64,000 bases of DNA from Minisyncoccota bacterium (GCA_036517175.1 DATDXQ010000028.1:2113-66112); one strand, 5' to 3'. Positions 5,357 to 44,551 are shown, numbered from the stretch's first letter. Made by a program: numbers and translations. The notes: a model not told the origin generated them from the sequence alone.

Positions 5357-5359
5357 AGA

Positions 5360-14185: not shown

Positions 14186-14320
14186 CCGTCAAAAGGGTGG
14201 ATTGTCCCGATTCTGCTCTGCAGAATCGAGGATCCTCGATTTTCATGAATGAAAATCGGGACATGGTCATCGAGCAGTATAATTATTATTCACTGTGAGA
14301 TGAATCCACGCTTTTGACGG
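14186..14320. repeat. Nested palindromic element in the intergenic region.
   Basis: Outer 18-bp inverted repeat CCGTCAAAAGGGTGGATT / AATCCACGCTTTTGACGG with 1 mismatch. Inner 9-bp inverted repeat GTCCCGATT / AATCGGGAC. Internal perfect palindromes AATCGAGGATCCTCGATT and TCTGCAGA. Confidence 0.6.
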
Positions 14321-14379
14321 AATGCAGCAACTTCGCTGGAGTTGCAAATGGTGATAGAAGGCATTACACCAAAAACTTT

Positions 14380-15792: not shown

Positions 15793-15807
15793 CTTTATTA
15801 TAATTGG

Positions 15808-27367: not shown

Positions 27368-28552
27368 TTAGCTGCGCAAAATGTCACCGCAACTTTTAGC
27401 TATAATATCCCAGTCGTAATTTTCTAAAACTAAATTGCTGGCATTTTTGATAATAATCTCTTTCAACTTAGGTTCCTGGCTCAATTTAAAAATCTGCCCA
27501 GCCAAATCTTCGGCATCATTGATCTTACAAAACAAACCAGTTTTTTCATTTTCCAAAAAATCTGGTATTCCACCAACGTTGGTACCAATAACGGGGACAC
27601 CAGCTGCCATTGCCTCTAGAAAGGCATTGCCCAAACCCTCTGATCGTGATGGCCTGACAAAAACTTCAGCGATCTTAAGATACTTAGGTAACTCGTCGTG
27701 TCCGACTGATCCAACAAATACAACCTTATCGCCTAGTCCCAAATTTTCAGCTCTAGATTCCAGACTGGGCCTTTCCTGACCGCTTCCCACGATGAGAAGT
27801 TTCATGTTTGTTATTTTATATTTTGTATTTAGGATACCCAGCGCCTCAATTAAAACATCTATAGCGTTCTTGGGCACTAGACGAGAAACACTTATAATTA
27901 TCTTTTCTCCTGGCTCTATACCCAGAGTCTCTGCTAGACCAGAGAGTTCTCCATAACTATAGTCCCTTTTGAAATTAGCGATATCTACACCGTTTGGCAC
28001 TCTTATAACCTTAGCTCTTTTATTTAAATCCTTGGCATAATTCTTTAGATAATTGCTTATGGCTATAACCACATCTGCTTTCTTTATGATAAGCCCTCTG
28101 AAAAAATTGAGTAAGAAACCTTGTTTATTAAAATCCTGGCCCTCCTGTAAATTAAGAATATAGCGAACTCTAGGATTAAAAAACTTAAATAACCAAGCAG
28201 CGCCCCCCCCCTGGGAGGCCTGCAAAGCATAAATCTTTTTATAAGGTCCCAATTTTTTTGACAGCTCCCTTCCCTTAAAATAGGCCATTATTGGATATAG
28301 AGCCTTAGGAATAAAGATCCTGGACAAGTTCAATCTAGATCCCACGCGGTATACAGTAGTGTTATTAATTTTTTCCTCAGTTGGAAGAAGTTTTTTGGGA
28401 TTTGAGGGATCTGGCAACCGAGAAGCGATCAAGTCAAAAGTTATATCTGGAAGTCGAGTCGCAATTTCATGGAATGCCAGTTCGGCTCCACCAATGTTGG
28501 GCAAATAGTTGGTTGCAAAAACCAATATTCTTTGGGTTGTATTTTTATACAT
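27368..28552 (-). CDS. Glycosyltransferase family 4. It contains a G9 tract (C9 on the plus strand).
   Basis: MAAGVPVIGTNVGGIPDFL..EKTG GT4 motif. Start trimmed to the ATG at 28550-28552. Homopolymer at 28203-28211. Confidence 0.7.
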   Translation of the reverse strand: MYKNTTQRILVFATNYLPNIGGAELAFHEIATRLPDITFDLIASRLPDPSNPKKLLPTEEKINNTTVYRVGSRLNLSRIFIPKALYPIMAYFKGRELSKKLGPYKKIYALQASQGGGAAWLFKFFNPRVRYILNLQEGQDFNKQGFLLNFFRGLIIKKADVVIAISNYLKNYAKDLNKRAKVIRVPNGVDIANFKRDYSYGELSGLAETLGIEPGEKIIISVSRLVPKNAIDVLIEALGILNTKYKITNMKLLIVGSGQERPSLESRAENLGLGDKVVFVGSVGHDELPKYLKIAEVFVRPSRSEGLGNAFLEAMAAGVPVIGTNVGGIPDFLENEKTGLFCKINDAEDLAGQIFKLSQEPKLKEIIIKNASNLVLENYDWDIIAKSCGDILRS

Positions 28553-28575
28553 TTTACTATATAATAGTGTCACAA

Positions 28576-29796
28576 ATGAACACTGGAATCAACCAGATAA
28601 TCTTACCTAATAACAAGAACCCGATAAGGGTTTTGTTTATTATTACCCAATCAGAACTTGGAGGTGCTCAAAGATTTATTTCACAGTTGTTGCCCAATCT
28701 CAGCAAGAATAACTTTGAACTAACCGTGGCCACAGGACGTGATGGCAAAGAGGAGCTACAATCTCTATTGCCCGCCAATACAAAGTACATCAATACCAAG
28801 AACCTGCGTCGCAATCCAAACCTACTTTCAGACATATTGTCCCTGTTTGAAATAAAAAAAATAATCAAACAGCTCAGCCCCGATGTTTTGTTTTTAAACA
28901 GTTCCAAGGCAGGATTCATCGGCTCCCTATCAGCTCGCCTATTGAAACCAAAGCAAAGGCAACCCAAAGTAATTTACCGAATCGGCGGCTGGACATTCAA
29001 TGACCCCTGGCCTTTGTGGAAAAAAATCCTATATCGATGGTTGGAAAAAATAAGCGCCAAATGGAAGGATTACATAATAGTAAACAACAAGCATGATTAT
29101 GATCAAGCCATCAAATTTGGGATAAAACCGCGAAAAAAAGTCGAGCTTATATATAATGGCATCGACCCTTATAAACTTGATTTTCTGGAAAAGGATGAGG
29201 CTAAGATAAGATTGTATGAAAAGCTGCCACCATCAGAAAAACACGGCAGTTTTTTGCACAAAGGCCTGCTCATAGGCACAATTGCTAATTTTTATCCCGC
29301 AAAAGGCTTAGAGTATCTAATTGATGCATTCTCCAGCATTCAATCACCCACTGCTAATTTAATAATTATCGGGGATGGTCAAGGAAGGCAGGATCTTGAA
29401 TCTAGAATTAAAAACCTAGGGTTAGAAAATAAGGTTTTTCTAGCCGGGCATATATTGAATGGGCACAAATACCTCAAGGCATTTGATATTTTTGTTTTGC
29501 CTTCAGTCAAAGAAGGATTCCCCTGGTCATTGCTTGAGGCGATGTCAGCCAAACTTGCAGTTGTAGCCACCAGCGTAGGAGCTATTCCAGAAATAATTGA
29601 AGATGGAAAAAATGGTTTTCTTGCACAACCAGCAAACGCACAAAGCCTAGCCAAGGCAATTAAGGAATTATATAGCAATGAGGATATGAGGCGCGAATTC
29701 GGCATCCAGGCTCATCAAACTATTATCCACAAATTTTCTCTCAACAAGATGGTCGAACAGACCAAAGAGATACTTCAGAAAGGCTTTTTGTGTTAA
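28576..29796 (+). CDS. Glycosyltransferase family 4.
   Basis: RVLFIITQSELGGAQRF N-terminus and MSAKLAVVATSVGAIPEII..GKNG. The ATG at 28576 is preferred over the ORF-track start at 28381. Confidence 0.75.
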   Translation: MNTGINQIILPNNKNPIRVLFIITQSELGGAQRFISQLLPNLSKNNFELTVATGRDGKEELQSLLPANTKYINTKNLRRNPNLLSDILSLFEIKKIIKQLSPDVLFLNSSKAGFIGSLSARLLKPKQRQPKVIYRIGGWTFNDPWPLWKKILYRWLEKISAKWKDYIIVNNKHDYDQAIKFGIKPRKKVELIYNGIDPYKLDFLEKDEAKIRLYEKLPPSEKHGSFLHKGLLIGTIANFYPAKGLEYLIDAFSSIQSPTANLIIIGDGQGRQDLESRIKNLGLENKVFLAGHILNGHKYLKAFDIFVLPSVKEGFPWSLLEAMSAKLAVVATSVGAIPEIIEDGKNGFLAQPANAQSLAKAIKELYSNEDMRREFGIQAHQTIIHKFSLNKMVEQTKEILQKGFLC

Positions 29797-30640: not shown

Positions 30641-32008
30641 TCACTTAGTTGGGACAACTCTATAAATTAGGCCCGCAGAGTCGTCAGAGATATATAAGGC
30701 ACCGTCAGGACCGAATTTGAGATCAACGGGTCTGCCGATTATAGCACCTTGCCCTGGACCAGCTTGTCCTGAGTCCGTCGAACGGGCCGAAGGGTCAAAA
30801 AATCCGGTTAAAAAATCCTCACCATCCTGATTTTTTGGCTGTTGCAGATTGCCATTTTTATCAAGATTAAACCTGACAATCTTATAACCTACGGGCTCAC
30901 TCCTGTTCCATGAACCATGATAGGCAACTAGCAGATCACCAGCCCACCCACCAGGCCATTTATTTGAATCAATAAACGCCAGGCCCAGCGGCGCAGAATG
31001 TGCCGGTATTTCTATCAGGGGTGCTTCTGTCTGACTGCAATCGGCTGATATATCGACTCGGTCTACCTTGGTCGGATTGAATGTCTTGTCTCTAATCTTG
31101 TCGCCATAGCAAAAAGGCCAGCCATAACGACGAGCTCCGAACTTGTGCTCTTCGGTCGCAACCTTTACGATATTTATTTCATCAGGGGGCAGTTCATCAC
31201 CAAGATTATCGCGCCCCATATCAGTCGCCCAAATCTCATCTGTTTCGGGATGGAATGCAAAAAATACAGAATTCCTTAATCCACCAGCAAATTCTGCCGT
31301 ATACTTACCTTCCGGATCTGACTCTAAAATGCTTGCCCTCTTCCATGTTTCAGTTTCCACGCAAACATCACACGATGAGCCAACACTTATATAAAGCTTC
31401 ATCGGAACCTGCGTATCCACCTCACTTTTGCCACCTATAATCTGTTCTTCACGAAAATTGCGCCCGAAAGCGATAGTCCTAGTAAAATGCATACCGTCAG
31501 CCGGTAGGTTAGCTATGTTCTTGCCAATCGTATTCATTAAGGTTCCCTTCGACACGTCATACTCAAAGCGTGAGACTTGATAAGTTTCAGCCACGTAAAG
31601 ATAAACTTTTTTAGTCTTGGGATCAGTGTAAAAAGCCAATCCATGCGGAGACTTGCGGTTTTCCAGTATCACTGTTTTCTTTTCAGCCAAGCCGTCGTTA
31701 TCAGCGTCTGTAAGGGATACGACCCGCCCAGCCTTAGTTTCACTTACAAACATTCTGCCCTTAGAATCAAAGGCGATGACCCTGGGATTGATAAGATTAT
31801 CAGCAAAAACCGAGATGGAGAATCCAGGAGGAAGAGTCAGAAAATCAAGCTTACCATCCGCACTTGGAGACGGCGTAGATGTAGTCTTCGGAACATTATA
31901 TCCGGCTATTTTTTTAAGAACCAGGGAGTCAGTCACGAAAAAATATGTTCCCACAATCAAAACCGCCAAAAACAAAACAGCATAAATCTTGTTAATCTTG
32001 ATCTTCAT
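30641..32008 (-). CDS. Membrane-anchored soluble-quinoprotein-type sugar (glucose/sorbosone) dehydrogenase beta-propeller.
   Basis: N-terminal TM helix. GFSISVFADNLINPRVIAFDSKGRMFVSE propeller blade signature of the SGDH family. Confidence 0.6.
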   Translation of the reverse strand: MKIKINKIYAVLFLAVLIVGTYFFVTDSLVLKKIAGYNVPKTTSTPSPSADGKLDFLTLPPGFSISVFADNLINPRVIAFDSKGRMFVSETKAGRVVSLTDADNDGLAEKKTVILENRKSPHGLAFYTDPKTKKVYLYVAETYQVSRFEYDVSKGTLMNTIGKNIANLPADGMHFTRTIAFGRNFREEQIIGGKSEVDTQVPMKLYISVGSSCDVCVETETWKRASILESDPEGKYTAEFAGGLRNSVFFAFHPETDEIWATDMGRDNLGDELPPDEINIVKVATEEHKFGARRYGWPFCYGDKIRDKTFNPTKVDRVDISADCSQTEAPLIEIPAHSAPLGLAFIDSNKWPGGWAGDLLVAYHGSWNRSEPVGYKIVRFNLDKNGNLQQPKNQDGEDFLTGFFDPSARSTDSGQAGPGQGAIIGRPVDLKFGPDGALYISDDSAGLIYRVVPTK

Positions 32009-32009
32009 A

Positions 32010-32564
32010 TTAATATTTTAACTCCACAGGAATCTGGCCGGTACAGGAAGATTCTTTGATTTCTAGATTCCTATTTATAAAGACTCCGTAGGTAACCTTA
32101 GCGGTCAAAATATAGTTTTTGGATTTAGGACTATCCGGTAAACTCACCGTTAAGTCTTCCATGCCATCGGGCAACGGAAGATTAGCAAAAATATTCGGAC
32201 CTACTGACAAATTATCATCGGGAGATATAGTCCAAAAAATAAGTCTGGCTATGCTGTCAATATTTTTATAAATAATATTGGCATCCTTATTCTCGTATAA
32301 CTTGGGCGAAATGAACACAATACTGCCTGTCAATTGGCATTCTGCTGGTGGATATTTGTTCATGGCATCTGGTGTTTGAGTAACTTGAGAGGTCGGGAGC
32401 GGAGTCACTGTCACAGAAGTAGTCGCGCTAGGTTCTGCGGTAACGGTGGGGGTAGGGACCTCGCCAGGCTCTTGGACTCTCAGTTTTGAAAAATATAAAA
32501 ACAAAACTAAAGCAGCGCCAACCGCCAAAACCACTAGCAATATTATAGTTTTTTTAGTAATCAT
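32010..32564 (-). CDS. Membrane-anchored hypothetical protein with a Pro/Thr linker.
   Basis: Single N-terminal TM helix, then TPTVTAEPSATTSVTVTPLPTSQVTQTP linker. Confidence 0.4.
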   Translation of the reverse strand: MITKKTIILLVVLAVGAALVLFLYFSKLRVQEPGEVPTPTVTAEPSATTSVTVTPLPTSQVTQTPDAMNKYPPAECQLTGSIVFISPKLYENKDANIIYKNIDSIARLIFWTISPDDNLSVGPNIFANLPLPDGMEDLTVSLPDSPKSKNYILTAKVTYGVFINRNLEIKESSCTGQIPVELKY

Positions 32565-32581
32565 ATTAATCAAATTATTGA

Positions 32582-34351
32582 CTATTTTAGTCTCTTAATC
32601 AAGTCTTCAATCAACCGTCCGGCTTCTGGATCATTCCCCACCACCTCAAGGCCCAGATTAAGATTTTCAATGGCAGATTTGTGATTATTTATAGCCAAAT
32701 ATAACAATGCGGCATTATAATAGACTCTCGGATCATTAGATCTCAGCCTTTTTAGAATCTCGGCGTATTCTATTGCTTTGGTTAAATCGCCTTGATTGGC
32801 ATAAATAACCACCAAATTTTGATAGGAATAGTGGAAATTTGGATCAATCTCTATCGCCCTTTCAAATTCTTTGATGGCACCAAACATATCCCCCTCAGAT
32901 TGGAGTATGCCTCCAATGTTGAAATGGGGCTGGGGGAAAACATCCTCCACCGCGGCTGATTTCATATAATACTTGCGTGCAAGTTCTTTATCTCCCTGAT
33001 TGAAATACAAATTTCCCAAATTATTATTTACTCGAGCACTCTGTGGTTCATATTTCAAAATATCTTTAAAAAATTCAATCGGTTTGCCCCAAAGAATATT
33101 GCGCCTTATGGCTTGATAACCGAAAAATGAAAAATAAATAACCAACAAAGCAGAAAGTACGAAATAGAGAGTAGGAAGTTTTTTAGATTTTAATAAATCA
33201 AACATTTTTAGCAAATAAAATGAGATAACAAACCAGAATCCTACCATGGGCAGGTAGAGCCAATGTTCATACATGACGGCGTTGATCGGCACAATGCCGG
33301 AAACCGGACTAAGACCGACAAAAAACCAGCCTACCCCCAATAGCCAAATCTTATACGTCCTGTCCCCTGCCCTATACAATCGCCAAACTTGCCACATGAT
33401 GCCCACGGTTATCATAACCCCAAACCAAACCGGCCATTGAAACAAAGAAGTATGCACTGTCACACTTCTTTCCATATGCAGACCGACTGGCACGAACAAC
33501 AGCCGTATGTAATCAACAAGAACATGCATGAAAGTCATTATCCGATACCACAGATTTTCTGAATACAGATTCGGCGCGGTGTAAAAGTTGAGGGTATTCT
33601 GGAAATTAAGGACTGTGAGTCGCAGGATGCCGTAAATTATGACTACCCCGAAATACAACCACGCCTCTTTTAGGGCTTTTTTAATTGAGATTAAAAATTT
33701 ATCAGTAGAAATAAACGCAATGTAAAAAACCACCAAAAGAAACGGAAATATAATACCAGTTTCCCTGCTTAATATACCGATAGCCGCTGAGGCCAAAGAT
33801 ATAAATTTGTATATCAAAGACTTAGACGGATTATCTTTTGATTTAATAAATAGAAACAGGGCCAAAAACATAAAAAACACGACCAGTGAATCACCCCGGC
33901 CGGCAATATATGTTACGGCTTCGGTTTGAAGAGGATGAATAGTAAAAATAAAAGCCGTCAGAAAAGCCACAAGATTAGACCTTTTTGAAGATCCGAGGTC
34001 GAATCTTTTAAGCAGAAAAAAAACTAAGACTGCGTTAGCTATATGTATTAAATTGCTTGTGAGGTGCCAAAATATGGGCTGTATTCCTGATGCTACATAA
34101 TTGATGGCGAAAGTTAAAAATAGAAACGGCCGGTAGTAATTGCTATCCAAGCCCACTCCAGCGAGAGTATTATGACTGAACCAAAACTTAAGGTTATTCC
34201 AGGTTATATCATGTACAAAGACATTGTTTATTATCCAATCATCGTCATCCCAAAAAAGAGGATTGTCCAAATTAAAGGCGTAAATAAAAAATCCAGCGGC
34301 AGCGAGAACTAGAATTGGCCAAAAACGGCGGAATAAATGAGAAATAAACAT
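32582..34351 (-). CDS. Polytopic membrane protein with a C-terminal TPR-repeat domain (GT-C / TMTC-like putative protein glycosyltransferase).
   Basis: About 12 TM helices over 400 aa, then 4-5 TPR-like repeats (NLGNLYFNQGD..., YQNLVVIYANQGD...). Confidence 0.5.
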   Translation of the reverse strand: MFISHLFRRFWPILVLAAAGFFIYAFNLDNPLFWDDDDWIINNVFVHDITWNNLKFWFSHNTLAGVGLDSNYYRPFLFLTFAINYVASGIQPIFWHLTSNLIHIANAVLVFFLLKRFDLGSSKRSNLVAFLTAFIFTIHPLQTEAVTYIAGRGDSLVVFFMFLALFLFIKSKDNPSKSLIYKFISLASAAIGILSRETGIIFPFLLVVFYIAFISTDKFLISIKKALKEAWLYFGVVIIYGILRLTVLNFQNTLNFYTAPNLYSENLWYRIMTFMHVLVDYIRLLFVPVGLHMERSVTVHTSLFQWPVWFGVMITVGIMWQVWRLYRAGDRTYKIWLLGVGWFFVGLSPVSGIVPINAVMYEHWLYLPMVGFWFVISFYLLKMFDLLKSKKLPTLYFVLSALLVIYFSFFGYQAIRRNILWGKPIEFFKDILKYEPQSARVNNNLGNLYFNQGDKELARKYYMKSAAVEDVFPQPHFNIGGILQSEGDMFGAIKEFERAIEIDPNFHYSYQNLVVIYANQGDLTKAIEYAEILKRLRSNDPRVYYNAALLYLAINNHKSAIENLNLGLEVVGNDPEAGRLIEDLIKRLK

Positions 34352-34491
34352 AACTAAAATGTATCAAAAAAAGGCCTGCCAAGCAAACCAAAACCCCACC
34401 ATTTGGTGGGGTTTTGTAATTTCTTGGCCAAGACCCGATGCAAGATCGGGAGTGCCAAATACTTGACTAAAGCCAGCTCAGCTGGTTAAAC

Positions 34492-37400
34492 CTAGAAACC
34501 ACTCGTGACAAAGGAGGTTCCGTTAAGCGGCAATGTCTTCAAGACATTTGCTACGTTTGCGGTTCCGATGTCAGTTACATCAGAGTTAGCTACCCAGTTA
34601 ACCTGACTAGCCTCATCACGCAATACCAATTGGAAGTAGTCGCCGTTTGTAGCGAATCCTGCAAATGTAGTAGTCGCGTAAATTGTCTTAGATGAACCAC
34701 CGGAGATCTCTAGATCCTGACCAGTGCCTGACGTACCGAAGCTCAACGAAGCCACCATATCAGTACCGGACTGTGCAGTCTCGAGAATATCTGTTCCATA
34801 GGTTACGTTGTCATCAGCACCTAAGAATGTCAATGTCATATTGGCATTCGTCTGACCAGAAGCCACTGTGTCGAATAGTATGGATCCGGAAGAATTGATA
34901 ACGCCTCCGTCGAATAATAGCTTCGAGTCGGCAAGACCAACGGCCTCAATAGTAAACCTAAGTACTTCTTTATTACCACCGATGGCATTACCACCACTTG
35001 AAGCGCTCAAGTTGGTAAACTTAGGAAATACTCTATAGGCATACATATTGTTGCCTGCCCTGTTTACAATATCCGCGTCTGTTCCGCTCGTTACCGTTCC
35101 GGATTCACCGACTGACCTAAACTCGTTAGCTCCGCCACCAGAGAAGTCGATGGAGAAGTTCACGGCATTAGTCGCACCCTCTGCCTTGGTCTTCATATCG
35201 GCCTTAACTGTCACGTCCAATGAACTGTCAGCAGGTACATATGGTCGGTTATCTCCCGTCCATGCAAATGATACCGAAGCCTTAGTGTCAAATACACCTT
35301 CGCTCGTTATCGTGGCTCCCGCTTTGTTCTTGTAGGTCAAATAGACCTTCTCAACATTGGCAATCACATCAGCGATTGTATCGCCAGTTTGCAAAGTTAC
35401 CTCTTCCAGATACTGACCCTCGTCAGTTGCTGTAAATCTGAATTTGGAAAACTCGGCACCGTTCTGGCCCCAATATACTCCAGCCTTGGCAGTAGTTGCC
35501 GGAGCGGCAGCCACCGTAAGATTACCAGAATTCTTAACAGTCAAGACAACTGTCGGCGTGACACCCCCGTTAGGACTGTTGTTGCCATTATTAACGGTGT
35601 TGTTGGAATCATCTATGGCCGTAACATCAGTTGCGCCATCGATATCGAAAGAATATCCGTCTCCCTCTGAACCTGATGCTGTGTTATTTGAGAGATTGGC
35701 CTTAACCAATAAGGTCCTTGTCTCACCAGCAGCAAGCATCCAGTTCAAATTACTGAACTTAATAGTACCAGTGTTGATTACGCTTAAATTATTGCTATTT
35801 GGGGTGTTGGAAATCAAAGCGCCAGTTCCACCGTCATAGATTGCTACGCTGCTAACAGCATTGGCAATAGATACCCCAGCATTGCTAGTATCAACACCTT
35901 CATTCTGAGTTCCTGTAAGAGCTCCGTCCGTACCGTCTTCAACATAACCAGTTAAGGTAATATCAGTAACTTTTAATCCAGAACCTTGAGCTGCGGCAAA
36001 TGTTATGCCTACGAATTCAGCTCCGTTAGTTCCCTTGATATAGGTCCTGTCTGTCGGTGAAGCTGCTAGACCTAAGGTCAAAGATGAACCCTTTAAGGTA
36101 ATGTTAGAACCGGATATATCTGAGTTAGGAACAACATCAGTAGTAGCAACCGCTGTGTTGGTTCCTGAGTACTTCATTACAGTTACGTCAGCTCCTGGAT
36201 AAGAATCAAGAACCATTCTGACTACGCTGTTAGCGTCTAGGTCAGCGGTACCGGTATCATCAACGGCATCACCATCAAAGTCAGCTGTAACCTTGAAGTT
36301 GTATGTTTGGCCGGCAGACAAATCAATCACATCTGTAAATGTATTCTTAGCTCCGTCAACATTGTCCGGACATGAAACATCATCGGCTTCATTAAATGCA
36401 GATCCGTCAACCGGACCCATCACAACCTGGCCAGAGTCCTCATTAATAACTTTAACGTCAAGGACATCAGCACTCAAACCGTTGGTTGTATCTTCTACTG
36501 CTGCATAAGTTCCATTTCCATCATCGTCGGAACAGAATACCAATTCCGTCTTACGAACCTCAATGTTGCTTACGGCAGTCATTGAGAATCGGAGAAGGGT
36601 AACATCTGTAGAATTGGTGGCAATATTAGTGGCGTTCGGACCATTATAAGCGATTGTCAAAACTCCACCTTGTAGGGTTAGGTCAGTGACATCGCTAGCC
36701 GCATCTATATCCGTATCGGTAACAGCCATACCTTGGCCGTACTGATCTCCAACAGCATAGGTGTCGGCATCATTTTCAAAGTAAAAGTCAATTGTCTCAG
36801 ACTTCTTGCCAGCTAGGTCAGCCCACACCTTGAATATGGCATTTCCTCCCTTGATAATGGTAAATCCTGAACCAAGATCAAACACGGCATAACCGTCAGA
36901 AGTCATACTACCAGACCATGTGCTGGTACCGCTTGTTAACTTAAGATTGGTCATATCGCTAGGCTTGATTGTTCCACCATTGATTAAAGTCAGTCTCTTC
37001 ACGCTGGCAGCTTCTGTGTTGGCAGTAATTTTGAATTCAGAAACCTGCGCAGCTTTTTGACCAACAGTCGGGTTAGACAATGAACCTGACCTGACAAGTG
37101 TTACTCCACCAGATGAAGCTCCGGAACTGGAAACATTATTTCCATTCAAAGGTAAACCGGATACGGTGCCCGAAGCGGACACACTCAATAATTGCATGAA
37201 GTTAACATTGCCAGCTGTATTAGCGGCAGCCATGTCAGCGATAACTGAAAGGTCCTTCCATCCACTTACCGGAACATTCAGCAAGAATGTGACCTCACCA
37301 TTTGAAGATGAGAACGTCTTACCAGAAACTAATCTCTTTGCGCCATCATATATGTAGACGTTGGCAAAGTCATCAGTTTGACCGGCACCCAGTCTCTTAA

Positions 37401-38109
37401 CTGTCATACCAGTGATTGTTCCGCTACCGGAAAATCTAACTTTCAAGAACTCAACACCTGTTGCATTCAGTGTGATCGTCTTAGCTAATGGACTATCAGG
37501 AGCTAAAACAACAGACAATGGACCGGTTGCAACCGGAGTTGAACCTGGAGTCCTGGAATAGTTAGGGACCTGGTTTACTGAAGTGTAATTAGATCCTTTG
37601 GCATACCAATTGAACTCATTGTTGTTGATACAGAAAACTTTCTTGAAGAAATTGGCGTCATCAGCAACAGCCTGTGAGCCTGTTGTGTTAACCCAGTGGA
37701 GCATACCGACATCTTCACCGGTAGTCTCAACACCATAAACTTTCTCATCATTGGCTTCACAATTTCTGAACAAACCGGAAGTGCCGAAAGCATCTCTGGT
37801 TGCAGGTGAGACATTCTTAACAGCCGCGAAGCCGCCAAGGTGTCCATAGAAGCCGAATATTGCAGGGTTCAAGAACAATCTCTTGTAACCGTGCTCATTA
37901 ACAATATATACATCTGGATCGTCAGAACCGGCGGCGCTTACAACGTCACCCTCTTTCAATCCATAATCGCTAGGAGCTACAGCTGAGGCATTATTCACAC
38001 CAAAGAAGTAGACAAAACCTGCGACTAGCAACATCGCTGTTGCTATAGCAACAATCGTGGAAACATTTTTAAGTTCCCCGATGCCACCATAAGTCGTAGC
38101 TTTACTCAT
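34492..38109 (-). CDS. Large (1205 aa) secreted/anchored surface protein, candidate S-layer protein.
   Basis: N-terminal signal anchor. Composition dominated by T, S, G, N, D, A and V. No catalytic motifs. Positioned after the glycosylation locus. Confidence 0.55.
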   Translation of the reverse strand: MSKATTYGGIGELKNVSTIVAIATAMLLVAGFVYFFGVNNASAVAPSDYGLKEGDVVSAAGSDDPDVYIVNEHGYKRLFLNPAIFGFYGHLGGFAAVKNVSPATRDAFGTSGLFRNCEANDEKVYGVETTGEDVGMLHWVNTTGSQAVADDANFFKKVFCINNNEFNWYAKGSNYTSVNQVPNYSRTPGSTPVATGPLSVVLAPDSPLAKTITLNATGVEFLKVRFSGSGTITGMTVKRLGAGQTDDFANVYIYDGAKRLVSGKTFSSSNGEVTFLLNVPVSGWKDLSVIADMAAANTAGNVNFMQLLSVSASGTVSGLPLNGNNVSSSGASSGGVTLVRSGSLSNPTVGQKAAQVSEFKITANTEAASVKRLTLINGGTIKPSDMTNLKLTSGTSTWSGSMTSDGYAVFDLGSGFTIIKGGNAIFKVWADLAGKKSETIDFYFENDADTYAVGDQYGQGMAVTDTDIDAASDVTDLTLQGGVLTIAYNGPNATNIATNSTDVTLLRFSMTAVSNIEVRKTELVFCSDDDGNGTYAAVEDTTNGLSADVLDVKVINEDSGQVVMGPVDGSAFNEADDVSCPDNVDGAKNTFTDVIDLSAGQTYNFKVTADFDGDAVDDTGTADLDANSVVRMVLDSYPGADVTVMKYSGTNTAVATTDVVPNSDISGSNITLKGSSLTLGLAASPTDRTYIKGTNGAEFVGITFAAAQGSGLKVTDITLTGYVEDGTDGALTGTQNEGVDTSNAGVSIANAVSSVAIYDGGTGALISNTPNSNNLSVINTGTIKFSNLNWMLAAGETRTLLVKANLSNNTASGSEGDGYSFDIDGATDVTAIDDSNNTVNNGNNSPNGGVTPTVVLTVKNSGNLTVAAAPATTAKAGVYWGQNGAEFSKFRFTATDEGQYLEEVTLQTGDTIADVIANVEKVYLTYKNKAGATITSEGVFDTKASVSFAWTGDNRPYVPADSSLDVTVKADMKTKAEGATNAVNFSIDFSGGGANEFRSVGESGTVTSGTDADIVNRAGNNMYAYRVFPKFTNLSASSGGNAIGGNKEVLRFTIEAVGLADSKLLFDGGVINSSGSILFDTVASGQTNANMTLTFLGADDNVTYGTDILETAQSGTDMVASLSFGTSGTGQDLEISGGSSKTIYATTTFAGFATNGDYFQLVLRDEASQVNWVANSDVTDIGTANVANVLKTLPLNGTSFVTSGF

Positions 38110-39140
38110 GTTTTAATTTATTTTGATTCACCAACGCCCTGTCTAAAGACCGGGAATTGATGAGTTATTAATTTTAGAAGCAGAAACAAATACGATAACC
38201 GAATCTTAATTTCCTAATGCAATTTGAATATTGCAACTCGAGAGATGCATTCGACCACAAGTCTCAAGTTACATTGCAAATACTCGACCCACATAAAATT
38301 CGCTTATCACAACATAACAATAATTAACAATAATATTTTCTAATATTCTTGCGGCAATTTAAATCTTCTTGAAGCAACATGTTTATTAATTTTCAAAGTC
38401 CATTCCTATTGCCTTCCAATGACAGAAGCCTAAACCCTTAAAAATAATGGCAAGCATCTAACATCAGAATACAATCAATCAATATGATAACACTCCTTCT
38501 CAAAAACAACAAAGCAACCAAAATGGCTATTTCCAAAAGGTTGCATAGTGATTCAAGAATATCATATTTTCCTGTTATTTTTATATAAAATTGACTCTCT
38601 AGTGACATCTAACAGGGTTGCACTAATCTTATCAAAAGTGGCCCTAAAGGTCAACTTATAACTAAAAATAATAGCCAACCAGCAGCTACCAATAATTTTT
38701 AAATTTAACTTATCTAAATGGTAATGCGCTAGTTCATTTACAATTATAAACGATACTTATTAAGTCACAAGCTTTTCTGTGGATAAATTAGCAATATTTT
38801 TATAATTTTAAACAACATTGCAGCAATAAAATAGGGTGTGTTAATGTACTAAAATAAAATATACATGCTGATATATACAAGAATAGCGATCAATATTGTT
38901 TAACAAAAATAGTATATGTAGTTATTCGGAATAAACTATAAAAATAGCCTGGAGATAAATACGTTACTTAAATTGAGCTAATTTAAGCACTAAAGCTATT
39001 TAATAGATAGTTAGATAGCTTTAGTAATTTAACTTAATTATCAATTTAATCATGCCACGATGGTGTCACGATGATGTCGTAAACATTGTCATCATGCTGA
39101 CACCATTATCACCGTGACAAAAATTAAGCAACATCATTAC
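38110..39140 (-). promoter_or_regulatory. 1 kb AT-rich ORF-free leader/promoter region of the S-layer-like gene. It includes an imperfect 17-bp inverted repeat at 39059-39107.
   Basis: No ORF of 60 aa or more on either strand. Inverted repeat ATGGTGTCACGATGATG ... CATCATGCTGACACCAT. Confidence 0.45.
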
Positions 39141-39141
39141 T

Positions 39142-39172
39142 TTTAAAAAAAGATCGCTTAAATTAGCGACCT
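39142..39172 (-). terminator. Rho-independent terminator of the PD40 gene.
   Basis: gatcgct-taaatt-agcgacc hairpin. Minus-strand T7 run. Confidence 0.45.
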
Positions 39173-39181
39173 TGATACAGC

Positions 39182-41041
39182 TCAGTTATTACTTAGGACA
39201 AATATTTCCTGATTTGAGTCTTCATTCCTATTACTAGGATTTGATATTGATTGGAATACTATCTTATCGCCCCATCCATTCATTGATGGTAGCAATGTTC
39301 TAAGATTAACACTTACTTGTTGAATGACCTGTGTCTTAAAATTTATAATAAAAATATTTTCTAATGAGTGGTACATAAATAACGAACCGTCAAAAGATAG
39401 ATCTATCGCCTGCGAACCTATAAAATTATTCGTCTTAAAAACATTTAGATATTCACCGTCTCCATTGTAAATAAATACCGAACCAGAATCAGAACCTGAG
39501 GTAGTTACTACAGTTGACCCGTCATCACTAATTGCTTGTGAATATATTTCATAATTATTAGGTTTTATTTCCCTAAAATTTGTTCCGTCTTTGTTTATTA
39601 TTGCTAAACGCCTGGAAATAGAATCTGATGTTTTGGGAATACTCAACGCCCTTGAAAAAAGAAAGGTTATTTTATTTCCATCTCCACTTATTCCTGGAAC
39701 AAATGATCCGTCACCAGAATTATTACAACAAAACTCAATAAGCATCTTCTGGTTGGCTCCGTCTGGATTAACAGTATAGATTCTTTTACTACCATAATAT
39801 TCTGGGAAAGAAGTATAAACTATCGTAGAGCCGTCGCTAGACATAGCCACACCAGCAACTATTCCGAAGGTTGGTATTTGCCTTAAGTTGGTGCCATCTG
39901 TGTTGGAAATAAAAATTCCAGGCAAGTCAGAAAAGGATCTCTTGGCTATGAAAGCCACTTTCTTACCATAAGCATCTAGCTCTGGTGGTTGACCAACAAA
40001 ATCAAATATGAGTTCCTCACCTATCCGGGTCAGTCCAGTTCCGTTAGATTTAATTACAAACAAAGCCCTCGCCATGGACTGATTGAGGCCTTGCAAGTTA
40101 GCATCTGAAACAAAGGCGACCCTACTACCATCCCTACTTATTGTAGGTGAAAAATTTTGAGAAGGCAGCTTGGTATCTGTTAATTGTAATATTTGGGGCT
40201 GTGGGTAACCAGTAATTTCAGCTATTATCTGGTCAAGAATTTTTGGTCCGCTTACAGGACCGGCTAGATATGAGTTAACAAACGAGTGGCACTCGACTGG
40301 CTTACCACAATCAAAATATGGAACATTGCTAACATTGGCAGGCATCGCCCTGATGTTTACGGGAAAAGAATTTATAACACCGTCCTCAATAATTGTAGTA
40401 TGGGTATATGGAGAATTTGAGCCCGAAACATAACTCGAAGGTGACCCAACAGAAACGATGGAAAAGGTATTATCGTTTTCAGCACTTGGGGTTCCATATA
40501 TATAACTGTAAGCTGCATTGGCATAGAAATTTCCCTGAGAATGAGCGACCACTATGCTTTTATTGCCGGCTCTTTTTTCTTTAACATAATGTAGTACGTG
40601 CTCTCTTAGATCGTTATCTACAATGTAAGAAAATTCATCATTTAATTTCGCCTGTTCAGATGCAAAATCCTGTAGAGCATCTGGGATTATCTGCAAGCTG
40701 GACAGCCATCGCCATAAAATTGACATGTCTTCACCAACAAGTTGGGCCATGGCTTCAAGTAAATCTAGTTTTACCTTTTCTTTTGAATTATATGCCAGGG
40801 CGAATTTTAGACATTCAAATTTTACAGGACTATGAATCTCCTCCAACCGAGACCTCAGCCTTGTCTCTAAACCATTGGGGCTTATTTCTCCCAATTCCTG
40901 TTCGCGAGCGTCCTCTCTGCTTACAAACATACCATTACCAAAGAAAATTGTTGTTACCTTGTCAGGACACTGGCAAAACAATGCTCCGCTGAAAATAAAA
41001 GAGGCCAAGAAAATGCCTCTGATTCTTGATGTCTTCGTCAT
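39182..41041 (-). CDS. Secreted protein with an N-terminal lipase/esterase-like domain and C-terminal PD40 (TolB-like) beta-propeller repeats.
   Basis: Signal peptide. VVAHSQGNFYAN (GxSxG-like). Repeated DGS(R/T)(V/I)xF(V/T)S PD40 motifs. Confidence 0.5.
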   Translation of the reverse strand: MTKTSRIRGIFLASFIFSGALFCQCPDKVTTIFFGNGMFVSREDAREQELGEISPNGLETRLRSRLEEIHSPVKFECLKFALAYNSKEKVKLDLLEAMAQLVGEDMSILWRWLSSLQIIPDALQDFASEQAKLNDEFSYIVDNDLREHVLHYVKEKRAGNKSIVVAHSQGNFYANAAYSYIYGTPSAENDNTFSIVSVGSPSSYVSGSNSPYTHTTIIEDGVINSFPVNIRAMPANVSNVPYFDCGKPVECHSFVNSYLAGPVSGPKILDQIIAEITGYPQPQILQLTDTKLPSQNFSPTISRDGSRVAFVSDANLQGLNQSMARALFVIKSNGTGLTRIGEELIFDFVGQPPELDAYGKKVAFIAKRSFSDLPGIFISNTDGTNLRQIPTFGIVAGVAMSSDGSTIVYTSFPEYYGSKRIYTVNPDGANQKMLIEFCCNNSGDGSFVPGISGDGNKITFLFSRALSIPKTSDSISRRLAIINKDGTNFREIKPNNYEIYSQAISDDGSTVVTTSGSDSGSVFIYNGDGEYLNVFKTNNFIGSQAIDLSFDGSLFMYHSLENIFIINFKTQVIQQVSVNLRTLLPSMNGWGDKIVFQSISNPSNRNEDSNQEIFVLSNN

Positions 41042-41988: not shown

Positions 41989-42612
41989 TTAATTGCCATG
42001 AGGTTCAGGCCTATTTGCTAAGGAATAAAATACAATTTTGCCGTTAGCTGTTCTTTTGAGAAAACCGGCCTCTATCAGTTCGTGCAACTTGCGTTTAAGA
42101 GTTCGCTTAGATATTTCGGGAATCTTTTGAAAAATTTCTACATTTCTTACTTGTTCATGACCATTCATAAGCTGCATGATTCGATTATGACCCTGACCAA
42201 TTGAGATTTGAACAGAAGCAGCCACGGGTTGCTGAACGATTTTAACCACTTCTTTCTCTACCTTTTGCTGTTTCTGATTTTTTACAGACAGAAGAAATAA
42301 TTTTATTGAAAGCAGATCTCGCTCAAGCAAAAGGGGACAGGTCCGGTCTAAGTTTAAATTCAAATAATTACAAACTTTTACTAAAGTAATTATATTTTGA
42401 ACACGAGAAAATAATCTTGCATTATATTGTGCGACATGATTATTCTGGGCAGGAGCCGTATTCCTCAAGAAAAATAAATAATCCGAAAATAAATTTTCAA
42501 ATTCTTTATCTAAAATTTCTGAAAAAAATTTATCAGAAAGTCCGGCACTTAATTTGGCCAGCAATCTGAAACACCTAGAAAAGATTGTAATCACCTCTCG
42601 CCTGTCAATCAC
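41989..42612 (-). CDS. Hypothetical protein with a C-terminal winged-HTH-like segment.
   Basis: C-terminus ISKRTLKRKLHELIEAGFLKRTANGKIVFYSL. GTG start. Low confidence. Confidence 0.3.
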   Translation of the reverse strand: MIDRREVITIFSRCFRLLAKLSAGLSDKFFSEILDKEFENLFSDYLFFLRNTAPAQNNHVAQYNARLFSRVQNIITLVKVCNYLNLNLDRTCPLLLERDLLSIKLFLLSVKNQKQQKVEKEVVKIVQQPVAASVQISIGQGHNRIMQLMNGHEQVRNVEIFQKIPEISKRTLKRKLHELIEAGFLKRTANGKIVFYSLANRPEPHGN

Positions 42613-42641
42613 ATCTTCACTCTTACTACAATCATTTGTGC

Positions 42642-43661
42642 TTAGTCAACACCGAACAGCTGTCTTGCCCTTTCCCAAAACTCAGGATGGTTCTGATTTT
42701 CTTTCATCCAATACCACCACTCGGCACCCCAAAGATATTGAGAAGAGAAACCAGATTCTTCAGCAAAATTGATAATTTCATTGAATTTATCAATGCCCAT
42801 TCTGTCCAGTATAGTATCGATGTCAGCAGTTACTATTGGCTGAAGTAACCATGGCTCACTTGAAAGCTCAATTAAAATCTTGGTTTTTTTACCATAAAAT
42901 ATATCGACTAAACTTTGTTTTATTCTGAAAAATCCTGGAAATATGGGATATCTTATCGGACCAGTTTTCCACCAAACATAAAGATAGAGACTAGAGCCAA
43001 AAACATCACCCCGCTTGTAAGCCGGAAACCAGGAATCAAATTCTCCGGCCGCTGTAATTAATATGGGCCTTTCTGGATCAAGAGTTCTAATCAATTCAAT
43101 CTCTTTTTCCAAAAGCTCCTCATCTAAATCTCCACACATTGACCGACTAAAAAAAGCCAAGTAGGGCTCGTTCTCAACTTGCCAATACAATATGTTGTTA
43201 TAATCCTTGTATCTATTTACTACAGTTTCAATATATTTCAACAATTGTTCCCCCTTAAACTGTCGTTTCTTATCTTCCTCCGCGATCCCAGAAATTTTTT
43301 CTGCCAACCAGTCTGGTTCATGACATTCTGGCCAACCGGGAAGTCGACGGCCAACCGCAAGAATTACTGAAGCGCCCCGCTTACGCGCCTCATTCATTTG
43401 GAAATCGAGCTCTGAAAAATTAAAGCTGTTATCTTCTGGCTCTGTGTTTGGCCAGTGAGCACTAAATCTGAACTTGCGCACCTCAAGATCATCCAACAAT
43501 GCCACATAAACCTCGCGCCAATCCACTTCCAACTCGTCAGAGTGAAATTTACTAAAAGATACACCGTATTCTATTTTGTCAGGAATTTTACGAAGAGAAA
43601 GAACAAATAAAATTAAGACAACTATTACACAAACCAGAATAAAAATCTTTATTTTCTTCAT
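42642..43661 (-). CDS. Membrane-anchored glycoside hydrolase, clan GH-A TIM barrel (GH5-like).
   Basis: N-terminal TM helix. WQVENEP (acid/base) and ELSSEPW (nucleophile) spaced about 100 aa apart. Confidence 0.5.
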   Translation of the reverse strand: MKKIKIFILVCVIVVLILFVLSLRKIPDKIEYGVSFSKFHSDELEVDWREVYVALLDDLEVRKFRFSAHWPNTEPEDNSFNFSELDFQMNEARKRGASVILAVGRRLPGWPECHEPDWLAEKISGIAEEDKKRQFKGEQLLKYIETVVNRYKDYNNILYWQVENEPYLAFFSRSMCGDLDEELLEKEIELIRTLDPERPILITAAGEFDSWFPAYKRGDVFGSSLYLYVWWKTGPIRYPIFPGFFRIKQSLVDIFYGKKTKILIELSSEPWLLQPIVTADIDTILDRMGIDKFNEIINFAEESGFSSQYLWGAEWWYWMKENQNHPEFWERARQLFGVD

Positions 43662-44539: not shown

Positions 44540-44551
44540 ATTTATTGATAA

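What the first reader, a model, noticed from the sequence alone, without database searches (positions are those of the whole stretch)
32582..38109. TPR-tailed GT-C-like polytopic membrane protein immediately upstream of the 1205-aa S-layer-like gene: candidate O-oligosaccharyltransferase and substrate pair
A multi-TM domain followed by TPR repeats is the TMTC/PMT-like architecture used for protein O-glycosylation. Here it is adjacent to, and co-oriented with, the giant T/S/G/N-rich surface protein and the 30 kb glycan locus. Known bacterial S-layer O-OTases are Wzy_C-type (WsaB/WsfB). A TPR-GT-C enzyme in this role would be a distinct system.
Basis: inference. Interest (0 to 1): 0.5.

Follow-up and report, generated by a model that had tools for sequence, protein, structure and literature searches.

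The report
TMTC-like glycosyltransferase beside giant surface protein
A membrane sugar-transferase with a protein-binding tail sits just downstream of a giant cell-surface protein gene in an ultra-small (Patescibacteria) bacterium; the pairing recurs across related genomes, so it is a plausible enzyme-and-target pair of an already known type, but it is untested.

Summary
Both ORFs exist as described. They lie on the minus strand, so the 589-aa gene is downstream of the 1205-aa gene, not upstream, and two terminator-like hairpins separate them.

The 1205-aa protein is acidic, Thr/Ser/Gly-rich and secreted, with an N-terminal α/β module and about eight β-sandwich domains. S-layer identity is unproven.

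In 30 of 31 related Patescibacteria loci with enough upstream sequence, its homologue lies upstream of the GT-C gene on the same strand.

The likeliest function is transfer of single sugars from a polyprenyl-phosphate donor to envelope proteins, not en-bloc oligosaccharide transfer. Relatives also carry a canonical Wzy_C+TPR candidate nearby.

Precedents exist: TfpW/PilA, TMTC/cadherins and the streptococcal Pgf system. This is a new member of a known kind, of moderate interest.

The parts
33083..34351 (-). Membrane GT-C catalytic domain of the 589-aa protein (aa 1-423). It has 11 TM helices with the N-terminus inside, and long outside loops EL1 (aa 30-92) and EL4 (aa 247-307).
34244..34249 (-). 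Codons for D35-D36, the invariant acidic pair of the WDDDDW motif in the first outside loop. This is the presumed catalytic or metal-binding site and corresponds to the TMTC M1 'DD' motif.
   Evidence: Invariant in 40 and in 13 homologues. One Asp is invariant and the other at least 90% conserved in 78 distant relatives. Motif definition from PMC7801869.
32585..33082 (-). C-terminal TPR domain (aa 424-589, ten helices, about five repeats), predicted to face outside the cell. It is the presumed acceptor-protein binding module.
34373..34416 (-). Two terminator-like hairpins between the 1205-aa gene and the GT-C gene.
   Evidence: Sequence read directly; pattern scan.
34492..38109 (-). 1205-aa secreted surface protein and candidate acceptor. 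It comprises a signal peptide/anchor (aa 1-43, ...NNASA|VAP), an N-terminal α/β module (aa ~44-200; 37510..37980) and about eight β-sandwich domains (aa ~200-1205).
   Evidence: ORF. No Pfam or NCBIfam hit. 418 homologues, mostly 1190-1310 aa, with 48-87% identity among the 120 listed. pI 4.27, S+T 20%, 4 Cys. AF2 pLDDT 82. Foldseek: PrgB Ig-like domains, α2-macroglobulin, H. volcanii S-layer 7ptp. The N-module is shared at 73-79% identity with SH3_3 proteins.
38110..39181 (-). 1.07-kb AT-rich non-coding region (GC about 0.33) upstream of the 1205-aa gene, presumably promoter and leader.
   Evidence: Composition; sequence. Relatives also have upstream gaps of 0.5-1.4 kb. No sequence conservation was found.
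32010..32573 (-). 187-aa protein with an N-terminal membrane anchor, a Thr/Pro/Ser-rich linker and a conserved ~110-aa C-domain. It is a conserved member of the module and an alternative acceptor.
   Evidence: Sequence. Homologue present in 37 of 43 related loci. S/T/P-rich linkers (36-40%) are conserved in relatives. No family hit.
30641..32008 (-). 455-aa membrane-anchored GSDH/TrAA12-like β-propeller with a short S/T/P linker. It is a frequent member of the module.
   Evidence: Pfam GSDH 4.5e-11, TrAA12 3.2e-11, DUF7133 2e-13. Found in 23 of 43 related loci.
7118..7840 (-). 240-aa GT2 resembling polyprenyl-phosphate sugar synthases. It could make a donor, but the link is tentative because it is not the orthologue of the GT2 that accompanies the family elsewhere.
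   Evidence: Pfam Glycos_transf_2. Best NCBIfam resemblances are AglJ, PpgS, PgfS and ArnC, all below cut-off. Only 23-27% identical to the co-localised GT2 of relatives.

Best explanation
The 589-aa gene encodes a TMTC-like, GT-C-fold glycosyltransferase of a Candidatus Yanofskybacteria-type Patescibacterium.

[quoted passage not shown] About five TPRs also project outward.

Inferred mechanism: a cytoplasmic GT2 loads a single sugar onto polyprenyl phosphate, the lipid-linked sugar is flipped, and the GT-C domain transfers that one sugar to Ser/Thr hydroxyls of envelope proteins as they emerge from the Sec translocon. The TPR domain holds the acceptor protein.

The prime candidate acceptor is the 1205-aa acidic, Thr/Ser-rich, multi-β-sandwich surface protein encoded directly upstream. 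Its gene is linked to the enzyme gene throughout the clade. The membrane-anchored 187-aa protein and the GSDH-like propeller, which have S/T/P-rich linkers, are further candidates.

Shown here: fold, motifs, topology, homology and gene linkage. Inferred: donor type, protein acceptor, acceptor identity and sugar.

For: **Motifs invariant in homologues.**
- W34-D35-D36
- SNYYRP70-75
- HPLQTEAVTYIAGRGD139-154
- R196-E197-T198
- HMER292-295
- YEHWLY361-366

These correspond to TMTC motifs M1 (DD), M2 (SHKSYRP), M4 (KET) and M7 (ERxxY) as listed in PMC7801869. They align column by column with adjacent paralogues of relatives (hhalign 99.9%, E 2.4e-34). Those paralogues pass Pfam's TMTC_DUF1736 cut-off at 28.9-35.9 bits against a threshold of 27.

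**Topology.** An N-in, TPR-out arrangement fits the positive-inside rule.

**Linkage.**
- 30 of 31 Patescibacteria species-representative loci with at least 4 kb upstream have the 1205-aa homologue upstream on the same strand, with gaps of 119-5431 nt.
- The 187-aa homologue is present in 37 of 43 loci.
- The immediate outer neighbours in the window (the 249-, 619- and 287-aa genes) are found in 0 of 43 loci.
- Reverse look-ups from the big protein agree.

**Donor.** A GT2 whose best resemblances are polyprenyl-phosphate sugar synthases (AglJ, PgfS, ArnC, PpgS) abuts the GT-C gene in 7 Omnitrophota/Planctomycetes loci. A 40-46% identical copy lies within 10 kb in 16 Patescibacteria loci.

**Acceptor.** The 1205-aa protein has a signal peptide, pI 4.27, 20% Ser+Thr and an all-β multi-domain model.

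**Precedents.**
- TfpW (GT-C plus TPR) is encoded downstream of its substrate gene pilA.
- TMTCs O-mannosylate cadherin β-sandwich domains (abstracts).
- The streptococcal Pgf/PgtC2 GT-C enzymes glycosylate adhesins and S/T-rich regions.
Against: - There is no direct evidence that any of these proteins is glycosylated.
- The window protein itself fails Pfam's TMTC_DUF1736 cut-off (11.5 bits, E 0.31). It has no PMT or PMT_2 hit, and a profile of its membrane domain finds no solved structure by sequence.
- The Arg that binds the donor phosphate in TMTC and STT3-type enzymes is His in this whole subfamily, so donor chemistry may differ.
- Two terminator-like hairpins separate the two genes, so co-transcription is not assured.
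- The orthologue of the family-associated GT2 is not in this 64-kb window.
- The wider region (GH1-GH42 ... big gene ... GT-C ... GT4 genes) is also syntenic in at least two relatives. Part of the linkage may therefore be inherited gene order within one clade.
- The enzyme family is huge: 88,756 clusters at 50% identity with E<=1e-3. It also occurs in phyla without the big protein, so it is not intrinsically tied to that acceptor.
Confidence: 0.5

Rival explanations
1. General envelope-protein O-glycosyltransferase. The enzyme decorates Ser/Thr/Pro-rich linkers of many membrane-anchored or secreted proteins, as PgfM1/PgtC2 do in streptococci and PMT does in actinobacteria. The 1205-aa protein would be at most one of many substrates, and the adjacency would reflect a shared 'envelope' gene neighbourhood rather than a dedicated pair.
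For: The two other conserved neighbours have a TM anchor followed by S/T/P-rich linkers, with 36-40% S+T+P in the linker of the 187-aa family. The family occurs in Omnitrophota, Planctomycetota and Levyibacteriota without any homologue of the big protein, and is very large. Streptococcal GT-C enzymes act on many S/T-rich disordered regions.
Against: Linkage with the big-protein gene is far tighter (30 of 31 loci, always the same strand) than with other genes. The big protein is folded β-sandwich rather than a disordered linker. TPR-bearing relatives with known targets, TMTC and TfpW, are acceptor-specific.
Confidence: 0.25
2. Glycan- or lipid-modifying GT-C. The enzyme adds a side-chain sugar from a polyprenyl-phosphate donor to a cell-wall glycopolymer, for example the polymer that the N-terminal module of the surface protein binds. 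It would act as the GT-C arm of a 'three-component' system, like ArnT, GtrII or YfhO.
For: Many bacterial GT-C enzymes act on glycans or lipids, and three-component systems (GT2 plus flippase plus GT-C) are common (PMC11127046 abstract). A polyprenyl-phosphate-synthase-like GT2 accompanies the family. The gene borders a 30-kb glycan locus.
Against: All 78 distant relatives examined keep a TPR tail. The TPR-bearing transferases I know to be characterised (TMTC, TfpW, PglL/WsfB, OGT) act on proteins; this rests and on my own knowledge. The closest recognisable sequence family is TMTC, a protein O-mannosyltransferase. No GtrA-like flippase gene is seen next to it.
Confidence: 0.15
3. One reading: an O-oligosaccharyltransferase that moves a pre-assembled glycan en bloc from a polyprenyl-diphosphate carrier, built by the 30-kb locus, onto the S-layer-like protein. 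It would replace the Wzy_C-type enzymes.
Confidence: 0.08

Closest known systems
Animal TMTC1-4 protein O-mannosyltransferases (GT-C/PMT clan; Pfam TMTC_DUF1736 plus TPR)
   Same: Both have 11 TM helices and C-terminal TPRs on the non-cytoplasmic side. Both have DD in EL1, an xxYRP motif in EL1, HPxxTEAV..GRxD in EL2, K/R-E-T in EL3, and a hydrophobic non-membrane helix in EL4 where the DUF1736 model matches weakly (aa 259-293). The known acceptors are folded β-sandwich (cadherin) domains, which resemble the multi-β-sandwich neighbour here.
   Different: The window protein is below Pfam's DUF1736 cut-off (11.5 against 27 bits). The Arg of ERxxY is an invariant His. It has about 5 TPRs; from my own knowledge, TMTCs have 8 or more. 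It sits in a bacterial plasma membrane rather than the ER, and its donor and sugar are unknown.
Pseudomonas aeruginosa TfpW (group IV pilin D-arabinofuranosyl transferase)
   Same: A GT-C enzyme with 11 predicted TM helices, a DDx motif in a periplasmic loop and a periplasmic C-terminal TPR domain. It is encoded immediately downstream of, and co-oriented with, the gene of its protein substrate (pilA).
   Different: Sequence relatedness to TfpW was not tested because no sequence was available. The substrate here would be a 1205-aa Ig-repeat protein, not a pilin. There is no D-Araf precursor cluster here, and the organism is a monoderm Patescibacterium.
Streptococcal Pgf (PgfS/PgfM1) and GtrB/PgtC2 protein O-glycosylation
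   Same: A GT-A polyprenyl-phosphate sugar synthase works with a GT-C transferase that acts outside the membrane of a monoderm bacterium. The substrates are surface adhesins encoded in the same cluster, and Ser/Thr-rich regions of membrane-anchored proteins.
   Different: PgfM1 and PgtC2 are YfhO-type GT-C enzymes without TPR tails. The window enzyme is TMTC-like.
Wzy_C-type O-oligosaccharyltransferases (PglL, PilO, WsaB, WsfB)
   Same: They are proposed or shown to glycosylate S-layer proteins or pilins. WsfB and PglL also carry a C-terminal TPR motif.
   Different: These have a different catalytic domain (Wzy_C, not the GT-C fold) and transfer glycan en bloc from a diphosphate carrier. The window protein has no Wzy_C hit, whereas relatives encode a separate Wzy_C+TPR protein near the module.

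Membership tests
GT-C glycosyltransferase superfamily | Polytopic membrane domain with the GT-C fold | tested here: met
GT-C glycosyltransferase superfamily | Conserved acidic DxD/DD/DE motif in the first extracytoplasmic loop | tested here: met
   W34-D35-D36-D37-D38. D35 and D36 are invariant in 40 homologues. In 78 distant relatives one Asp is invariant and the other at least 90% conserved. The loop is placed outside by the model and the positive-inside rule.
GT-C glycosyltransferase superfamily | Uses a polyprenyl-phosphate-linked sugar donor | not testable with these tools
   Only indirect evidence: an AglJ/PgfS/ArnC-like GT2 abuts or neighbours the gene in relatives.
TMTC family (Pfam PF08409 TMTC_DUF1736 plus TPR) | Match to the TMTC_DUF1736 model at or above the gathering score (27 bits) | tested here: not met
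   11.5 bits, E 0.31, at aa 259-293. The model is not among the 25 most frequent families in 78 subfamily members.
TMTC family (Pfam PF08409 TMTC_DUF1736 plus TPR) | Homology of the membrane domain to proteins that do pass the DUF1736 model | tested here: met
   hhalign 99.9%, E 2.4e-34, 319 columns, against adjacent paralogues of relatives. Those paralogues score 28.9-35.9 bits on PF08409. BLASTP E 1e-26 to 1e-31.
TMTC family (Pfam PF08409 TMTC_DUF1736 plus TPR) | 11 TM helices with C-terminal TPRs on the non-cytoplasmic side | tested here: met
   AF2 helices; K+R distribution; TPR Pfam hits at aa 425-585.
TMTC family (Pfam PF08409 TMTC_DUF1736 plus TPR) | Motifs M1 DD, M2 SHKSYRP, M4 KET(Q)xxT and M7 ERxxY (PMC7801869) | tested here: inconclusive
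   M1 is present. M2 is present as SNYYRP, keeping YRP. M4 is present as R-E-T, and as K-E in distant relatives. M7 is present as E-H-W-L-Y, with the phosphate-binding Arg replaced by an invariant His (motif list).
TMTC family (Pfam PF08409 TMTC_DUF1736 plus TPR) | Transfers mannose from Dol-P-Man to Ser/Thr of specific folded domains | not testable with these tools
   No biochemical data.
PMT family (GT39; PF02366/PF13231 plus MIR domain) | PMT or PMT_2 Pfam match and a luminal MIR domain | tested here: not met
   No PMT or PMT_2 hit for the window protein, even at E<=10. Only a few homologues carry precomputed PMT or PMT_2 hits. There is no MIR domain; the extra domain is TPR.
TfpW-like pilin glycosyltransferases | GT-C plus periplasmic TPR, encoded directly downstream of the substrate gene | tested here: met
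   The architecture and gene order are analogous. The substrate relationship itself is not shown.
TfpW-like pilin glycosyltransferases | Sequence homology to TfpW | not tested
Wzy_C-type O-oligosaccharyltransferases (PglL/PilO/WsaB/WsfB) | Wzy_C (PF04932) domain | tested here: not met
   No Wzy_C hit. In relatives a separate 744-749-aa protein carries Wzy_C (E 7.9e-17) plus TPR.
STT3/PglB/AglB oligosaccharyltransferases | STT3 family match with the extramembrane C-terminal WWDxG domain | tested here: not met
   No STT3 hit. The C-terminal domain is TPR. The similarity is at fold level only.
Bacterial S-layer protein (for the 1205-aa neighbour) | Known wall-anchoring module (SLH, CWB2 and similar) or an S-layer family match | tested here: not met
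   No Pfam or NCBIfam hit. An uncharacterised N-terminal α/β module is shared with SH3_3 proteins.
Bacterial S-layer protein (for the 1205-aa neighbour) | Secreted, acidic, Cys-poor, Thr/Ser/Gly/Ala-rich, multi-domain β architecture | tested here: met
   Signal peptide, pI 4.27, 4 Cys, composition. About eight β-sandwich domains. Foldseek hits include the H. volcanii S-layer 7ptp at E 5e-11, among generic Ig-array proteins.
Bacterial S-layer protein (for the 1205-aa neighbour) | Forms a 2-D lattice and is among the most abundant cell proteins | not testable with these tools
   The one Yanofskybacteria metatranscriptome consulted lists other, shorter genes among its top signal-peptide genes.

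The most novel reading that the evidence does not exclude
Paceibacteria-type Patescibacteria carry a conserved envelope cassette. In it a giant Ig-repeat surface (possibly S-layer) protein is glycosylated on folded β-sandwich domains by dedicated TMTC-type GT-C enzymes, with one to three tandem paralogues in relatives. This would be a bacterial counterpart, and possibly an evolutionary relative, of animal cadherin O-mannosylation. It would use a subfamily in which the donor-phosphate Arg is replaced by His and whose membrane domain no Pfam model covers.
Probability: 0.25. Interest if true: 0.6.

Novelty: new member of a known kind. Interest (0 to 1): 0.4.

Why it matters
Almost nothing is known experimentally about the cell envelope of Patescibacteria, or about how these ultra-small episymbionts build the surface with which they touch their hosts.

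If the pairing is real, it names both a major surface protein family and the enzyme that modifies it. That gives a concrete target for glycoproteomics and cryo-ET.

It would also assign a first function to a very large, uncharacterised bacterial branch of the TMTC-like GT-C enzymes. This branch has tens of thousands of clusters, and its animal relatives cause disease when mutated.

The concept itself is already established: a TPR-tailed GT-C next to its protein substrate (TfpW), and GT-C O-glycosylation of adhesins in monoderm bacteria (Pgf).

Tried and rejected
- **Profile HMM of the membrane domain against PDB sequences.** It returned only a spurious designed-repeat hit.
- **Pfam and NCBIfam on the 1205-aa, 187-aa and 249-aa proteins.** No hits.
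- **Expression evidence for the big gene.** I looked in the Ca. Yanofskyibacterium metatranscriptome paper (PMC10936435). The highlighted highly expressed signal-peptide genes are 1320 and 2079 nt, so they are not homologues of this 3.6-kb gene. This was a dead end.
- **Literature searches.** Searches for Patescibacteria S-layer glycosylation and for TPR-glycosyltransferase reports found nothing relevant.
- **Alignment of 300 nt upstream of the big gene from eight loci.** No conserved leader or promoter beyond an A-rich stretch before the start codon.
- **Rfam and tRNA scans of the window.** One tRNA-Met only, unrelated to the finding.
- **Search for the orthologue of the family-associated GT2 and for a Wzy_C+TPR gene in the window.** Neither is present.
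- **Search with the N-terminal module of the big protein.** It returned mostly contig-end fragments, which says little beyond showing that the module is shared.
- **Rejected idea: the helix at aa 267-286 is a 12th TM helix, which would put the TPRs in the cytoplasm.** It coincides with the DUF1736 loop helix, which in TMTCs is not membrane-embedded. An 11-TM topology also fits the charge distribution.


Full report
**What is at the coordinates.**

Two long ORFs lie on the minus strand: 34492..38109 (1205 aa) and 32582..34351 (589 aa). In the direction of transcription the 1205-aa gene comes first and the 589-aa gene follows after 140 nt.

The spacer contains a 12-bp GC-rich hairpin (34416..34389). 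A second hairpin with a T7 tail follows directly (34389..34373). The large gene therefore looks like a unit with its own terminator, and the downstream gene may depend on read-through or on its own promoter.

Upstream of the large gene is a 1.07-kb AT-rich non-coding stretch with GC about 0.33. Relatives also have upstream gaps of 0.5-1.4 kb, but the sequence is not conserved.

The best homologues of both proteins come from Candidatus Yanofskybacteria and other Parcubacteria/Paceibacteria MAGs.

**The 589-aa protein is a GT-C enzyme with an outward-facing TPR tail.**

- Pfam finds only TPR families, at aa 425-585 with E down to 1.7e-20.
- The first 436 residues match nothing above threshold. 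The only trace is TMTC_DUF1736 at aa 259-293 (E 0.31, 11.5 bits against a cut-off of 27).
- An AlphaFold2 model built on 40 homologues is confident (pLDDT 84.4, pTM 0.79). It shows 11 long hydrophobic helices, two long loops (aa 30-92 and 247-307) and ten TPR helices at aa 424-588.
- Foldseek against the PDB was dominated by the TPR part.
- A profile of the membrane domain finds no solved relative by sequence. The assignment to GT-C therefore rests on fold and motifs.
- The lysine and arginine distribution fits N-terminus inside, 11 TM helices, and the long loops and TPRs outside.

**Motifs and relation to TMTC.**

The following are invariant across 40 homologues, and mostly across 78 much more distant relatives at 28-39% identity:

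- W34-D35-D36 in the first outside loop
- S70-N-Y-Y-R-P75
- H139-P-L-Q-T-E-A-V-T-Y-I-A-G-R-G-D154
- R196-E197-T198
- H292-M-E-R295
- Y361-E-H-W-L-Y366

Eisenhaber et al. (PMC7801869) list as the conserved TMTC motifs DD in EL1, SHKSYRP in EL1, KET(Q)xxT in EL3, DW in EL4 and ERxxY in EL5. They also state that TMTCs have 11 TM helices and that DUF1736 is a luminal loop with a hydrophobic helix that is not membrane-embedded. The window protein reproduces this plan.

In three relatives whose loci I fetched, the next gene downstream is a paralogue (24-26% identical, BLAST E 1e-26 to 1e-31). These paralogues pass Pfam's TMTC_DUF1736 cut-off at 35.9, 28.9 and 33.7 bits.

A profile-profile comparison of the two membrane domains gives 99.9% probability and E 2.4e-34 over 319 columns. 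It aligns:

| Window protein | DUF1736 paralogue |
|---|---|
| SNYYRP | GLYRP |
| HPLQTEAVTYIAGRGD | HPIHTEAVTSIVGRAE |
| SRET | SKES |
| YEHWLYLP | GERLMYFP |

The window protein is thus a diverged member of the TMTC-like branch of GT-C. One systematic difference stands out: the Arg that binds the donor phosphate in TMTC and STT3-type enzymes is an invariant His in this subfamily.

The subfamily is not rare. A profile of the membrane domain finds 88,756 cluster representatives at E<=1e-3 and 4,851 at E<=1e-30. All 78 sampled relatives have TPR tails, while Pfam's DUF1736 and PMT_2 models are not among the 25 most frequent families in them.

**The 1205-aa protein.**

- It has no family hit.
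- It has 418 homologues with E<=1e-3. The 120 listed are 48-87% identical and almost all 1190-1310 aa long.
- It starts with a signal peptide or anchor ending in NNASA|VAP.
- Its pI is 4.27, it is 20% Ser+Thr and rich in Gly, Ala, Asn and Asp, and it has four Cys.
- The AF2 model (pLDDT 82, pTM 0.48) shows a small α/β module at about aa 44-200, followed by about eight β-sandwich domains.
- Foldseek hits are generic arrays of Ig-like or macroglobulin domains: PrgB, α2-macroglobulin and complement, integrins, a large adhesin. The Haloferax volcanii S-layer protein 7ptp also appears, at E 5e-11.
- The N-terminal module recurs at 73-79% identity in shorter SH3_3-containing proteins, as expected of a shared wall-attachment module.

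All of this fits an abundant surface protein. None of it proves an S-layer.

**Co-localisation.**

A scan of one genome per species returned 56 loci encoding relatives of the membrane domain. Forty-three are Patescibacteria with at least 42% identity.

- Of the 31 with at least 4 kb of upstream sequence, 30 have a homologue of the 1205-aa protein upstream on the same strand, with gaps of 119-5431 nt.
- A homologue of the 187-aa protein is present in 37 of 43 loci, either between the two genes or after the enzyme gene.
- The GSDH-like propeller is present in 23 of 43.
- The window's immediate outer neighbours (the 249-, 619- and 287-aa genes) are present in none.
- Starting from three big-protein homologues, two loci show TPR-GT-C genes downstream and the third contig ends too early.
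- The 13 loci from Omnitrophota, Planctomycetota, Levyibacteriota and a 'Gammaproteobacteria' bin (33-36% identity) have no homologue of the big protein.

One caveat applies. A wider gene order (GH1, a ~290-aa gene, GH42, a ~205-aa gene ... big gene) is also kept in two relatives. Part of the linkage may therefore be inherited synteny within one clade.

**Donor side.**

In 7 Omnitrophota/Planctomycetes loci a GT2 of about 230-243 aa abuts the GT-C gene, convergent with it. A 40-46% identical GT2 lies within 10 kb in 16 Patescibacteria loci.

Its best NCBIfam resemblances are AglJ, PgfS, ArnC, PpgS and a dolichyl-phosphate hexose transferase. All are polyprenyl-phosphate sugar synthases, and all hits are below the equivalog cut-offs.

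The window has only 23-27% identical paralogues of this GT2, at 7118..7840 and in the C-terminal half of 14380..15792. The latter sits between two PMT_2 GT-C genes.

This pattern, together with the TMTC-type motifs, favours single-sugar transfer from a monophosphate-linked donor.

The architecture, the catalytic-loop motif and the conserved pairing all hold up. 'O-oligosaccharyltransferase' and 'a distinct system' do not.

- Fifteen related loci contain a 744-749-aa Wzy_C+TPR protein. This is the architecture described for WsfB and PglL (PMC2943079), and it is the more natural en-bloc transferase.
- No such gene lies in this window, but the window is only 64 kb.
- TfpW of P. aeruginosa is a GT-C with 11 TM helices and a periplasmic TPR domain, encoded directly downstream of pilA, whose product it glycosylates.
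- Streptococcal PgfS/PgfM1 and GtrB/PgtC2 are GT-A plus GT-C pairs. They O-glycosylate adhesins encoded in the same cluster, and Ser/Thr-rich regions of membrane-anchored proteins.
- TMTCs modify cadherin β-sandwich domains (abstracts).

The kind of system is therefore known. What would be new is the lineage, the acceptor family and the enzyme subfamily.

**Alternatives kept open.**

- The 187-aa protein and the GSDH-like propeller each have a membrane anchor followed by a Ser/Thr/Pro-rich linker. This is the classic acceptor type for PMT- and Pgf-type enzymes, so the enzyme may be a general envelope-protein glycosyltransferase.
- A glycan or lipid acceptor cannot be excluded. The universal TPR tail argues for a protein partner.

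**Verdict.**

The finding is a real and well-conserved gene pair. The enzyme assignment (TMTC-like GT-C) is well supported. The enzyme-substrate relationship is plausible but undemonstrated. The system is a new member of a known kind and of moderate interest.

Noticed in passing
window 12695..17481 (-): Two PMT_2-type GT-C genes (475 aa and 557 aa) flank a methyltransferase-GT2 fusion (470 aa). The GT2 half resembles the dolichyl/polyprenyl-phosphate hexose synthases AglJ and DPhHxTase. This looks like a second, separate lipid-linked-sugar plus GT-C arrangement in the glycan locus.
   Followed up: partly
window 3093..6340 (-): A NeuB-family synthase, a CTP_transf_3 cytidylyltransferase and a class-III aminotransferase lie together. 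This suggests a nonulosonic-acid (sialic, legionaminic or pseudaminic acid-like) pathway in a Patescibacterium.
   Followed up: no
window 37510..37980 (-), aa ~44-200 of the 1205-aa protein; L004 15025..16254; L006 15279..16484: The N-terminal α/β module of the big protein recurs at 73-79% identity in ~400-aa SH3_3-containing proteins and in many short proteins. It has no Pfam model. It may be a lineage-specific wall-attachment module. Many database hits are contig-end fragments, so assemblies often break in this region.
   Followed up: partly
L004 8038..13533; L005 10001..13508; L006 8443..13857; L065 14330..17892: Relatives carry two or three tandem polytopic TPR membrane proteins after the big gene: the orthologue of the window enzyme, a DUF1736-positive paralogue, and often a third protein of about 470-650 aa with no Pfam hit in its membrane part. 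The window and its closest relatives (L001, L007-L010, L012) have only one at this position.
   Followed up: partly
L004 18608..20842; L005 14907..17153; L006 19586..21835 (15 loci in all): A 744-749-aa Wzy_C+TPR protein (WsfB/PglL-like architecture) follows the GSDH-like gene in many relatives. It is absent from this 64-kb window.
   Followed up: partly
window 33262..33264 (-), codon of H363: The Arg of the TMTC/STT3 'ERxxY' donor-phosphate motif is an invariant His (YEHWLY) across this whole subfamily, including relatives at 28-39% identity. The adjacent DUF1736 paralogues keep the Arg (GERLMY).
   Followed up: partly
window 39182..41041 (-): The 619-aa protein has an N-terminal region containing a GxSxG-like 'AHSQGN' motif (possibly a lipase or esterase) and a C-terminal PD40 β-propeller. 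In the close relative L001, a 927-aa β-helix plus LCAT/PGAP1-lipase protein sits after the GSDH gene. These could be secreted lipases relevant to an episymbiotic lifestyle.
   Followed up: no
window 41989..45718 (-); L064 3793..8596; L065 4389..8265: A GH1 gene, a ~290-aa membrane protein, a GH42/GH5-like gene and a ~205-aa gene form a block that stays upstream of the big surface-protein gene in distant relatives.
   Followed up: no
window 28381..29796 (+) against 27368..28573 (-): The listed 471-aa GT4 ORF starts with TTG and overlaps the end of the convergent GT4 gene by about 190 nt. The Pfam match begins at aa 94, so the true start is probably further downstream.
   Followed up: no
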